This document shows, in pieces, positions 28,316 through 28,363 of a stretch of DNA of 50,532 nucleotides. Source of the DNA: an uncultured Candidatus Micrarchaeota archaeon (GTDB lineage: Archaea > Micrarchaeota > Micrarchaeia > Burarchaeales > Fermentimicrarchaeaceae); contig CAIXRF010000107.1 in the NCBI GenBank assembly GCA_903921825.1, positions 1 to 50,532 of the forward strand, in the 5' to 3' direction. A program made the translations under genes and the position numbers. Positions within the stretch are counted from its first letter, which is position 1. Every line of letters begins with the position of its first letter. Under the pieces are notes generated by a model. That model saw nothing but the letters and a program-made list of their open reading frames with translations, was not told the origin of the DNA and searched no databases.

Positions 28316-28325
28316 ATTTAAAAAG
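28316..28325 (-). promoter_or_regulatory. Putative TATA box of the gyrBA operon
   Basis: TTTTTAAAT on the minus strand about 50 bp upstream of the gyrB ATG. Confidence 0.6.
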
Positions 28326-28332
28326 GTATCGA

Positions 28333-28363
28333 ACGCGCGCGCGTGCGCGCGCGTGCGCGCGTA
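28333..28363. repeat. 31-bp perfect alternating purine/pyrimidine tract (Z-DNA-prone)
   Basis: ACGCGCGCGCGTGCGCGCGCGTGCGCGCGTA, read directly. Confidence 0.9.

What the first reader, a model, noticed from the sequence alone, without database searches (positions are those of the whole stretch)
28316..28363. Z-DNA-prone (CG)n tract abutting the gyrase promoter: possible supercoiling sensor
Seen: a perfect 31-bp purine/pyrimidine alternation (28333-28363, mostly CG with a 10-bp GCGTGCGCGC period) starts about 8 bp upstream of the putative gyrBA TATA box; I saw no comparable tract elsewhere in the window. Known: (CG)n flips to left-handed Z-DNA, or can extrude cruciforms, under negative supercoiling, which is what gyrase generates; bacterial gyrase genes are homeostatically induced by relaxation. 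Inference: a B-to-Z transition next to the BRE/TATA could block TFB/TBP or absorb supercoils, giving protein-free negative feedback on a horizontally acquired gyrase.
Basis: partly seen in the sequence, partly recalled or inferred. Interest (0 to 1): 0.78.

Follow-up and report, generated by a model that had tools for sequence, protein, structure and literature searches.

The report
Conserved Z-DNA-prone tract at topoisomerase promoters
A 31-base stretch of alternating CG-type DNA sits right against the promoter of the gyrase genes of a small uncultured archaeon, and similar stretches are kept at the gyrase and topoisomerase I promoters of its relatives, which makes it a good, still untested, candidate for a DNA-shape sensor of DNA twisting.

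Summary
Window 28333-28363 is a perfect 31-bp purine/pyrimidine alternation, 8 bp upstream of the TATA-like box of a gyrB-gyrA operon. It is the longest such tract in the 1.25-Mb assembly (next 22 bp; 0 of 40 Markov genomes reached 31).

In the archaeal order holding this genome (29 species genomes, 9 with gyrB), all 8 assessable gyrB promoters carry a CG-rich alternating tract of 18-32 bp, 1-16 bp from the TATA-like box. None of 45 gyrB promoters from other orders of the class has one, nor do 71 from elsewhere.

The longest tracts in two relatives (37 and 38 bp) lie upstream of topA (type IA topoisomerase). The second-longest tract here precedes an SSB-like gene.

Tract length, orientation and CA/TG positions drift, but alternation and a GAAC/GTTC "cap" are kept. 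Estimated B-Z flip: sigma about -0.03.

So there is a conserved cis-element of DNA-topology gene promoters. A B-Z supercoiling switch is my leading mechanism (about 0.4). An operator for a sequence-specific factor is nearly as likely, and "protein-free" is doubtful.

Earlier notes of this scan describe similar tracts at bacterial topoisomerase genes.

The parts
28333..28363 (.). 31-bp perfect purine/pyrimidine alternating tract: 12 CG, 2 TG and 1 TA steps on the + strand. Predicted Z-forming core is 28 bp.
28331..28334 (-). GTTC 'cap' straddling the TATA-proximal end of the tract (minus strand ...CGCGCGTTCGATACC). The same cap recurs at most related promoter tracts.
28325..28332 (-). 8-bp spacer TCGATACC between tract and TATA, in the position where an archaeal BRE would lie. 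It reads TCGAAACC in the two closest relatives.
   Evidence: The BRE assignment is inference from the known archaeal promoter layout.
28317..28324 (-). TATA-like box TTTTTAAA, 50 nt upstream of the gyrB ATG. An equivalent A/T box is present in all 8 orthologous promoters.
   Evidence: TBP gene present in the genome. No TSS data.
28367..28371 (-). T5 run between the upstream co-directional Zn-ribbon gene and the tract; likely archaeal oligo-T terminator of that gene.
   Evidence: inference
26356..28266 (-). gyrB (636 aa: HATPase_c, DNA_gyraseB, Toprim, GyrB C-terminal domain)
23840..26356 (-). gyrA. The longest ORF runs to 26521. The likely ATG at 26356-26354 overlaps the gyrB stop by one base, so the two genes form one operon.
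28415..28969 (-). Upstream co-directional gene for a zinc-ribbon membrane protein. Its stop bounds the 148-bp intergenic spacer that holds the element.

Best explanation
The tract is one copy of a conserved promoter-upstream element of this archaeal order: a CG-rich, strictly alternating tract of variable length (about 15-38 bp), usually capped at one end by GAAC/GTTC, placed against the BRE/TATA of genes that handle DNA topology.

Where it occurs: gyrB-gyrA in every gyrase-bearing member that can be assessed; topA in at least 7 genomes; an SSB-like gene in a few.

Shown: its existence, rarity, position and conservation.

Inferred mechanism: negative superhelical stress (global, made by gyrase, and local, left behind the transcribing polymerase) flips about 28 bp of the tract into left-handed Z-DNA once unconstrained sigma passes about -0.03. 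The flip absorbs about 5.8 turns and puts a B-Z junction 8 bp from the TATA box, on the BRE. Promoter opening or TFB/TBP binding then falls, and gyrase synthesis is throttled when DNA is over-wound negatively.

At topA the tract sits 16-27 bp from the TATA box rather than 1-7, so the same switch could have a different outcome there.

The conserved cap suggests that a protein (or a defined junction) reads one end, so I do not think the device is strictly protein-free.

My odds: functional conserved cis-element about 0.85; B-Z transition as its working principle about 0.4.
For: Rarity: 31 bp against a next-longest 22 bp in 1.25 Mb; 0 of 40 Markov genomes reach 31.

Conservation at gyrB: 8 of 8 assessable gyrB promoters in the order (3 families) carry a tract of 18-32 bp. 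One of them is 15+11 bp with a single in-phase break. All lie 1-16 bp from the TATA-like box. Outside the tract, the TATA box and a T-rich box, the spacers do not align between families.

Controls: 0 of 45 gyrB promoters from other orders of the class (5, 40) and 0 of 71 from bacteria and other archaea have a CG-rich tract of 12 or more.

Gene identity: in 5 relatives scanned for alternations of 19 or more, 7 of 23 tracts lie at gyrB or topA promoters, including the longest tract in G004 (37 bp, topA) and in G011 (38 bp, topA). In G024 the gyrB tract (32 bp) is one of only two. The second-longest tract in this genome is 17 bp from the TATA-like box of an Ssb-like OB-fold gene.

A property, not a sequence, is kept: length (18-38), position and period of the CA/TG steps (6, 8, 10) and orientation relative to the gene all vary, while alternation holds.

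Energetics: a two-state estimate with the parameters of PMC3024258 Table 1 (seen) gives sigma_c -0.031 for this tract and -0.031 to -0.038 for the 8 gyrB tracts in a 10-kb domain.

Precedent for topology-driven control of these genes in an archaeon: novobiocin stimulates gyrase and type I topoisomerase genes in Halobacterium salinarum (PMC3184054, passage seen).
Against: No experiment and no transcript data exist. No RNA run was listed, so the TSS, and even the use of this TATA box, are inferred.

The GAAC/GTTC cap is conserved (18 of 24 against 6 of 84), which a pure structural switch does not need.

Tracts also stand at topA in family f5 (29, 19 and 13 bp) and at the SSB-like gene in family f2. 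No gyrB was found in those genomes (88-95% complete). Global gyrase-made supercoiling therefore cannot be the only input.

The same element at the promoters of two antagonistic enzymes is not what a simple homeostat predicts.

4 of 8 assessable gyrase-bearing genomes of the order lack a topA tract of 18 bp or more: G016 and G024 have none; G021 and G026 keep only ACGCGTTCG motifs.

(CG)n with C-to-T interruptions is also what slippage plus CpG transitions would give, so transitions-only variation does not prove selection for alternation.

The unconstrained sigma in these organisms is unknown. The threshold estimate uses in-vitro parameters and an assumed domain size.

No convincing Z-alpha protein was found: only borderline hits of 22 bits or less, mostly in tract-less genera.
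Confidence: 0.4

Rival explanations
1. The element is an ordinary B-form binding site (upstream activating sequence or operator) for a sequence-specific transcription factor of this order. The factor reads GAACGCGCG / CGCGCGTTC and controls a small regulon of DNA-metabolism genes (gyrBA, topA, ssb-like) plus a few surface proteins. On this reading the long alternation is a by-product of CG-repeat slippage in or beside the site.
For: Cap enrichment: 18 of 24 promoter tracts against 6 of 84 background CG-rich tracts in this genome. Two of the six 'uncapped' rows were mis-picked by the script, and the true promoter tracts there are capped (sequences).

The shared flank extends further: aattctacGAACGCG recurs at two loci of G011 and in G026 and G016, and CGCGCGTTCGAAACC-TTTTTAAA recurs in family f1.

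Both caps form an inverted repeat at topA of G013, G022 and G014.

A position just upstream of BRE/TATA is typical of archaeal activator sites (established knowledge).

The element also occurs in genomes without gyrB and at non-topology genes: a beta-helix protein, membrane proteins and rpl3.
Against: The distance between the two caps varies (26, 32 and 40 bp), and most gyrB sites have one cap only. This fits no rigid dimer.

Tract length varies two-fold between orthologous promoters.

GAACGCGCG is not enriched genome-wide: 25 found against about 20 that I worked out by hand from base composition.

No candidate factor was identified.

It does not explain why the longest alternating tracts of whole genomes fall at topoisomerase genes.
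Confidence: 0.35
2. The tract is a preferred binding or cleavage site for the topoisomerases themselves (gyrase, or type IA topoisomerase at B-Z junctions). On this reading the enzymes occupy their own promoters and autoregulate.
For: The tract is located at the promoters of exactly these enzymes.
Against: No data here bear on binding. The element also occurs at topA in genomes with no gyrB found, and at unrelated genes. The cap is unexplained.
Confidence: 0.07
3. The tract has no regulatory role. It is a slippage-prone CG microsatellite that persists by descent, or a spacer/insulator between the oligo-T terminator of the upstream gene and the gyrB promoter.
For: Tandem structure (period 10 here; 8 and 6 in relatives). 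It lies between a T5 run and the promoter. The variation consists of length changes and transitions, as neutral slippage and CpG decay would give.
Against: It is kept in 8 of 8 gyrB promoters across 3 families whose GyrB proteins are only 61-77% identical and whose spacers are otherwise unalignable. It recurs at non-homologous promoters (topA, ssb) with the same cap. It is absent from 116 other gyrB promoters. In the metagenome sample most other long matches are (CA)n(CG)n microsatellites in non-prokaryote-like contexts, unlike these.
Confidence: 0.08
4. In part of the order the tract is transcribed and acts as RNA, as a 5' leader hairpin. This would follow if the conserved A/T box 10-25 bp upstream of the tract in families f8 and f3 is a second promoter.
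For: A conserved AAAAAGCA-NN-TTTTTTAACC box lies upstream of the tract in 5 genomes, whatever the upstream gene.
Against: In this window, and in family f1 generally, the only A/T box is downstream of the tract. There is no Rfam match. The single-strand fold is no better than shuffles. The box also looks like an oligo-T terminator.
Confidence: 0.05

Closest known systems
Non-B-DNA (alternating purine-pyrimidine) element of the Halobacterium bop promoter (Yang, Kim, Molinari and DasSarma 1996, J Bacteriol 178:840)
   Same: An archaeal BRE/TATA-type promoter whose activity depends on DNA supercoiling, with a non-B-DNA-prone stretch close to the TATA box.
   Different: I saw only the title, in reference lists; the paper is not held. 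That its element is a short (about 11 bp) alternating box is recalled. It concerns one gene of one halophile, not topoisomerase genes. It is far shorter than 31 bp, and no family-wide conservation or GAAC cap has been described.
Engineered (CG)n inserts used as in-vivo Z-DNA/supercoiling probes upstream of promoters in E. coli plasmids (Rahmouni and Wells; Jaworski, Zacharias and Wells; recalled), and the SIBZ theory of stress-induced B-Z transitions (PMC3024258)
   Same: (CG)n of about 24-32 bp flips at sigma about -0.03. Tracts placed upstream of an active promoter are flipped by transcription-generated negative supercoils. I used the same energetics here.
   Different: Those tracts are artificial inserts. 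This one is natural, conserved and promoter-abutting, and it stands at the genes that set supercoiling.
Homeostatic control of bacterial topoisomerase genes: relaxation-stimulated gyrA/gyrB, supercoiling-stimulated topA (Menzel and Gellert 1983, cited in PMC3184054)
   Same: The logic is the same: the genes for gyrase and topoisomerase I respond to the superhelical state of the DNA.
   Different: The bacterial mechanism lies in sigma-70 promoter geometry (-10 region and discriminator; PMC8422995, seen as search listing and abstract only), not in a Z-prone tract. Here the promoters are archaeal, and no response has been measured.
Eukaryotic promoter 'flipons' (Z-DNA-forming tracts near transcription starts; PMC10474125, seen as search listing and abstract only)
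   Same: Promoter-proximal alternating tracts proposed to capture transcription-generated negative supercoiling and reset promoter state.
   Different: Those are eukaryotic, chromatin-based and read by Z-alpha proteins. No convincing Z-alpha protein was found here.
Earlier notes of this scan on other genomes (e1-5259229 gyrB promoter spacer in Akkermansia; e1-5062600 tract upstream of topA in soil bacteria; e1-2663968 tract beside a topoisomerase III promoter)
   Same: Conserved alternating tracts next to topoisomerase genes, with letters drifting while alternation is kept.
   Different: Those are bacterial, with other positions relative to the promoter and no GAAC cap reported. They are unchecked AI notes and I did not test them.

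Membership tests
Z-DNA-forming sequence (flipon) | Long unbroken purine/pyrimidine alternation dominated by CG steps | tested here: met
   31 bp, with 12 CG, 2 TG and 1 TA steps
Z-DNA-forming sequence (flipon) | B-Z transition predicted at physiologically reachable negative superhelicity | tested here: met
   Two-state estimate: sigma_c -0.031 for a 10-kb domain, -0.0275 for an infinite domain. Parameters as in PMC3024258 Table 1. The model is crude.
Z-DNA-forming sequence (flipon) | Left-handed form demonstrated (2D gels, Z-alpha/Z22 binding, chemical probing) | not testable with these tools
   Needs bench work.
Archaeal BRE/TATA promoter | A/T-rich TATA box with a BRE just upstream, at a suitable distance from the gene, in an organism with TBP/TFB | tested here: inconclusive
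   TTTTTAAA lies 50 nt before the ATG and is conserved in 8 of 8 orthologous spacers. TBP gene found (96 bits). No TSS: no RNA run was listed.
Supercoiling-homeostatic topoisomerase promoters (bacterial RST type) | Transcription rises on relaxation (gyrase) or on excess negative supercoiling (topA) | not testable with these tools
   No expression data for this uncultured lineage.
Supercoiling-homeostatic topoisomerase promoters (bacterial RST type) | Determinant in the sigma-70 -10/discriminator region | tested here: not met
   The organism is archaeal (TBP) and the element lies upstream of the TATA box. It may work like such a promoter, but it is not a member of that class.
Transcription-factor operator / UAS | Conserved specific sequence at a fixed place relative to the promoter | tested here: met
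   GAAC/GTTC cap in 18 of 24 promoter tracts against 6 of 84 background tracts.
Transcription-factor operator / UAS | Fixed length, or fixed half-site spacing, across orthologous sites | tested here: not met
   Tracts are 18-32 bp at gyrB. Cap-to-cap spans are 26, 32 and 40 bp at topA.
Cruciform-forming inverted repeat | Hairpin markedly more stable than expected from composition | tested here: not met
   MFE -15 against shuffles -12.95 +/- 2.18 kcal/mol, z -0.94; 42 of 200 shuffles fold as well.
Neutral microsatellite | Not conserved between distant relatives; no link to gene identity | tested here: not met
   Present in 8 of 8 gyrB promoters of 3 families. Recurs at topA and ssb. Absent from 116 other gyrB promoters.

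The most novel reading that the evidence does not exclude
A DNA-conformation homeostat. The promoters of the two antagonistic topoisomerases (gyrase and type IA topoisomerase) and of an SSB-like protein in a DPANN-type archaeal order share one capped Z-DNA switch. The switch reads local superhelical stress directly. Its distance from the BRE/TATA (1-7 bp at gyrB, 16-27 bp at topA) sets the sign or strength of the response. The GTTC cap fixes the B-Z junction, or recruits a junction- or Z-specific factor. This would be the first natural regulatory Z-DNA element in archaea, and a way in which a horizontally acquired gyrase was brought under control.
Probability: 0.25. Interest if true: 0.88.

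Novelty: new variant of a known kind. Interest (0 to 1): 0.72.

Why it matters
Whether Z-DNA has any natural regulatory role in prokaryotes is an old open question, and how archaea control gyrase is essentially unknown. PMC9348778 calls topology-driven regulation in Archaea 'still poorly understood' (passage seen).

This finding offers a defined, short, evolutionarily validated element at exactly the genes where a supercoiling sensor would be expected. It comes with natural variants in length, orientation, cap and spacing that serve as ready-made test constructs. It can be tested entirely in vitro, or in a model archaeon, even though the host is uncultured.

If the rival is right instead, the result is still useful: it defines the first regulon motif for DNA-topology genes in this lineage.

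Tried and rejected
- **Cruciform:** the DNA fold of the tract is no better than shuffles.

- **Known RNA:** no Rfam match at E up to 1 in 27800-29000, nor at E up to 0.01 in four other tract loci.

- **Expression:** no RNA holder was listed. The laid runs are contigs only. X2 has no cover over the tract.

- **Z-alpha proteins (PF02295) in the 29 genomes of the order:** 10 genomes have weak hits (4 over the 21-bit cut-off, best 22.3 bits). Seven of the 10 are in the tract-less genera g2/g3 and none is in this genome. There is no link to the tracts.

- **Blind metagenome scan** with the capped 20-mer pattern. Of those, 1 has gyrB nearby, 0 have topA and 0 have the SSB-like gene. Most are high-GC DNA or (CA)n(CG)n microsatellites. 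The motif alone therefore does not mark topoisomerase genes outside this lineage, and no new relatives were retrieved.

- **The search for related loci with GyrB** returned mostly bacteria. I used it only as a control set: 71 of 80 loci were assessable, and 9 with the gene at the locus edge were dropped.

- **GyrB tree** (41 rows, quick method; the careful search did not finish). One row (G026) was a wrong-strand ORF with a very long branch. The order's GyrB lineages fall in an unresolved polytomy, so single versus multiple origin of the gyrB-plus-tract unit is open.

- **Short tracts:** of 87 CG-rich tracts of 10 or more in this genome, 4 have an all-A/T 8-mer within 40 bp (4.6%, against a background of 5.2%). 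Short tracts are not promoter-linked; only the long ones are.

- **C55:3748-3763** looked promoter-like but is coding, in an HAHADH motif of a metallo-beta-lactamase-fold gene.

- **topA tract versus gyrase presence within the order:** 4 of 8 gyrase-bearing genomes against 3 of 15 genomes with no gyrB found. This is not convincing, and the genomes are related to one another.

- **This genome's own topA promoter** cannot be read, because the gene is cut at a contig end.

- **Literature:** five full-text searches listed no paper describing a Z-prone tract at an archaeal gyrB or topA promoter. Most subscription papers are not in that library. The supplements of PMC9348778 (DPANN gyrase trees) were not looked at.

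Full report
**What is there.** The window is contig C107 of a 1.25-Mb, 138-contig, 58.5% GC assembly, 88.75% complete. It encodes TBP. Its class consists of small genomes of about 0.6-1.8 Mb. The nearest named GyrB loci in the public genome set include Woesearchaeota, Nanoarchaeota and Micrarchaeota MAGs at 58-62% identity. I therefore treat it as a DPANN-type archaeon.

gyrB (26356-28266) and gyrA (23840-26356) lie on the minus strand as one operon.

The 148-bp spacer upstream of gyrB, read on the minus strand, holds in order:
- the stop of a co-directional zinc-ribbon gene (28415-28417);
- a T5 run (28371-28367);
- the tract (28363-28333);
- TCGATACC (28332-28325);
- TTTTTAAA (28324-28317);
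- 50 nt;
- the ATG (28266).

The tract is 31 bases of perfect purine/pyrimidine alternation. TRF sees 2.7 exact copies of a 10-mer.

**Is it more than chance?** Yes.
- Across the assembly, alternating tracts halve in number with each added base. The longest are 31 (this one), 22 (C63:1870-1891) and three of 19.
- In 40 first-order Markov genomes the longest tract was 16-25. Extrapolation expects 0.001 tracts of 31 or more.
- A contig built by a different assembler from public run X1 crosses the tract without a difference. Its depth is 3.7 and it is probably the source sample, so this is weak but adequate evidence.

**Recurrence at gyrB.** The order that holds this genome has 29 species genomes in the held collection; 9 have gyrB. 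One of these (G014) has gyrB cut by a contig end.

All 8 others carry a CG-rich alternating tract in the same place. Lengths are 31, 27 and 22 bp (family f1), 19 bp (f3), and 29, 32, 15+11 and 18 bp (f8). The 15+11 case has one in-phase break. The tracts lie 1-7 bp from the TATA-like 8-mer, except 16 bp in G026.

The GyrB proteins are only 61-77% identical. In an alignment of the 8 spacers, only the tract, the TATA box and a T-rich box are conserved between families.

Controls:
- 5 gyrB promoters from other orders of the class have no tract.
- 40 more from 10 other families have none. The longest CG-type alternation there is 11 bp, and four A/T-rich alternations of 12-14 bp were seen.
- 71 assessable gyrB loci from bacteria and other archaea have at most 11 bp.

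The class tally (143 of 251 genomes with gyrB) includes one unpublished genome, G098. Nothing else here rests on it.

**Beyond gyrB.** I scanned five gyrase-bearing relatives for alternations of 19 or more and found only 3-6 per genome, 23 in all. Seven of the 23 are at gyrB or at the start of a 646-652-aa gene that Pfam identifies as a type IA topoisomerase (Topoisom_bac, Toprim, Zn ribbon).

The topA tracts of G004 (37 bp) and G011 (38 bp) are the longest alternating tracts of those genomes.

Across 30 topA loci:
- Tracts stand upstream of topA in G004 (37), G011 (38), G019 (29), G003 (21), G013 (19), G014 (18, with more CG pieces) and G022 (13, capped at both ends).
- G021 and G026 keep only ACGCGTTCG motifs.
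- The other 21 have none.
- G019, G013 and G022 (family f5, 89-95% complete) have no gyrB at E 1e-50 or better.

This genome's own topA is cut at a contig end.

The 22-bp tract on C63 lies 17 bp upstream of an A/T box and 72 bp before a 97-aa Ssb-like OB-fold gene. Among 28 orthologous loci, that gene has CG tracts in G004 (10 bp) and in gyrB-lacking family f2 (G010 20 bp; G018 in pieces), and none elsewhere.

A few further capped tracts sit before membrane or surface proteins and rpl3.

Tracts of 19 or more that lie inside genes are less CG-pure.

**What is conserved.**
- Length is not conserved.
- The position and period of the CA/TG steps are not conserved (10 here; 8 and 6 in the two nearest relatives).
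- Orientation is not conserved. In family f1 the strand reads CGCGCGCACGCG towards the gene; in f3 and f8 it reads the reverse complement.
- Alternation, CG richness and proximity to the TATA box are conserved.
- Unexpectedly, a GAAC/GTTC cap at one end is also conserved. It reads CGCGCGTTCGAAACC-TTTTTAAA in f1 (TATA-proximal) and ttctacGAACGCGCG in f3 and f8 (distal). At topA of G013, G022 and G014 both ends are capped, with spans of 32, 26 and 40 bp.

A script found the cap at or near the end of 18 of 24 promoter tracts, against 6 of 84 other CG-rich tracts of this genome. In two of the six misses the script had picked a longer coding tract in the locus. The promoter tracts there (G021 gyrB, G022 topA) are capped.

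GAACGCGCG is not enriched genome-wide: 25 found against about 20 that I worked out by hand from base composition.

**Mechanism.** I used the published energies (CG 0.7, CA/TG 1.3 and TA 2.5 kcal per dinucleotide; 5 kcal per junction; PMC3024258 Table 1) in a simple two-state model. It predicts that 28 bp of the tract flip at sigma about -0.031 in a 10-kb domain, absorbing about 5.8 turns. The eight gyrB tracts span -0.031 to -0.038.

The single-strand hairpin is no better than shuffles (z -0.94), so cruciform extrusion has no special support.

The tract lies just behind the gyrBA promoter. By the twin-domain model (established knowledge), that is where the operon's own transcription deposits negative supercoils. 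A B-Z flip there would put a junction on the BRE position and drain local superhelicity, lowering initiation when DNA is too negatively supercoiled.

Transcription-made supercoils would also explain tracts at topA in relatives where no gyrB was found.

The different spacing (1-7 bp at gyrB, 16-27 bp at topA) could give different outcomes, but that is speculation.

The conserved cap argues that something sequence-specific is also read. An ordinary factor-binding site is therefore a serious rival. The variable length and variable half-site spacing argue against a conventional operator. I put B-Z at about 0.4, a B-form factor site at about 0.35, and the rest on enzyme autoregulation, neutrality or an RNA role.

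**Comparison with what is known.** Gyrase in DPANN is attributed to secondary horizontal transfer from group II Euryarchaeota (PMC9348778, abstract and passages). The patchy 9 of 29 in this order fits that, but my quick GyrB tree is unresolved.

In Halobacterium salinarum, novobiocin stimulates gyrase and type I topoisomerase genes (PMC3184054, passage). The bop promoter was reported to depend on supercoiling and non-B DNA (Yang et al. 1996; title only).

Bacterial gyrase homeostasis works through sigma-70 promoter geometry, so this element may work like those promoters but is not a member of that class.

Five literature searches listed nothing on Z-prone tracts at archaeal topoisomerase promoters.

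Earlier AI notes of this scan report comparable tracts at bacterial gyrB, topA and topoisomerase III genes. I did not test them. In my metagenome sample, one high-GC bacterial contig (L269) has a 26-bp tract about 130 bp upstream of gyrB.

**Verdict.** This is a new variant of a known kind (promoter-proximal Z-prone element), and it is directly testable in vitro.

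Noticed in passing
L013/L015 (G003:C26:1642-4014); also G079, G106, G211, G232, G181: GyrB is matched in two pieces (to about residue 434, then from about 425) within one open frame of 793-1203 aa. This looks like an intein-like insertion at the same site in several genomes of the class.
   Followed up: no
L003, L005, L007, L008, L009: 10-25 bp upstream of the gyrB tract: A conserved A-run/T-run box (AAAAAGCA-NN-TTTTTTAACC) precedes the tract in families f8 and f3, whatever the upstream gene. 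It could be an oligo-T terminator, a second or bidirectional TATA box, or part of the element. It mirrors the f1 arrangement on the opposite strand.
   Followed up: partly
G000:C106:2-865 and G014:C122:1-1806: This genome's topA and G014's gyrB are both cut by contig ends: topA loses its 5' half together with the promoter, and gyrB is cut about 105 bp inside its 5' end. Assemblies may tend to break near such promoter tracts, which would make them under-counted in MAGs.
   Followed up: no
L269 (metagenome contig, GC 0.70), tract 1493-1518: A 26-bp capped CG alternating tract lies about 130 bp upstream of a bacterial-type gyrB (53% identical). It is the only one of 80 blind pattern hits next to a topoisomerase gene.
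   Followed up: partly
window 28415-28969 and 28935-29498 (minus strand): Two tandem paralogous genes for double-zinc-ribbon membrane proteins (one with a TM2 domain) have near-identical N-terminal halves. They lie directly upstream of the gyrase operon.
   Followed up: no
A1 alignment columns about 146-155 (window about 28300-28312): A GGGAAG-like box 5-10 nt downstream of the TATA-like box recurs in several of the 8 gyrB promoters. It could be a promoter-proximal or initiation-region element.
   Followed up: no
window 5887-6191: There is a 123-bp tandem repeat (2.1-2.3 copies, 81-85% matches) in what looks like coding sequence. A 36-bp repeat lies at 23693-23799, just downstream of the gyrA stop.
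   Followed up: no
G000:C42:1440-1481 (L182): A short capped tract (GAACGCGCGCGCGTAAGGGAGGGCGCGCGTAA) lies 26 bp upstream of a TATA-like box of a 470-aa membrane protein that has no Pfam family. It is a third, weaker copy of the element in this genome.
   Followed up: partly
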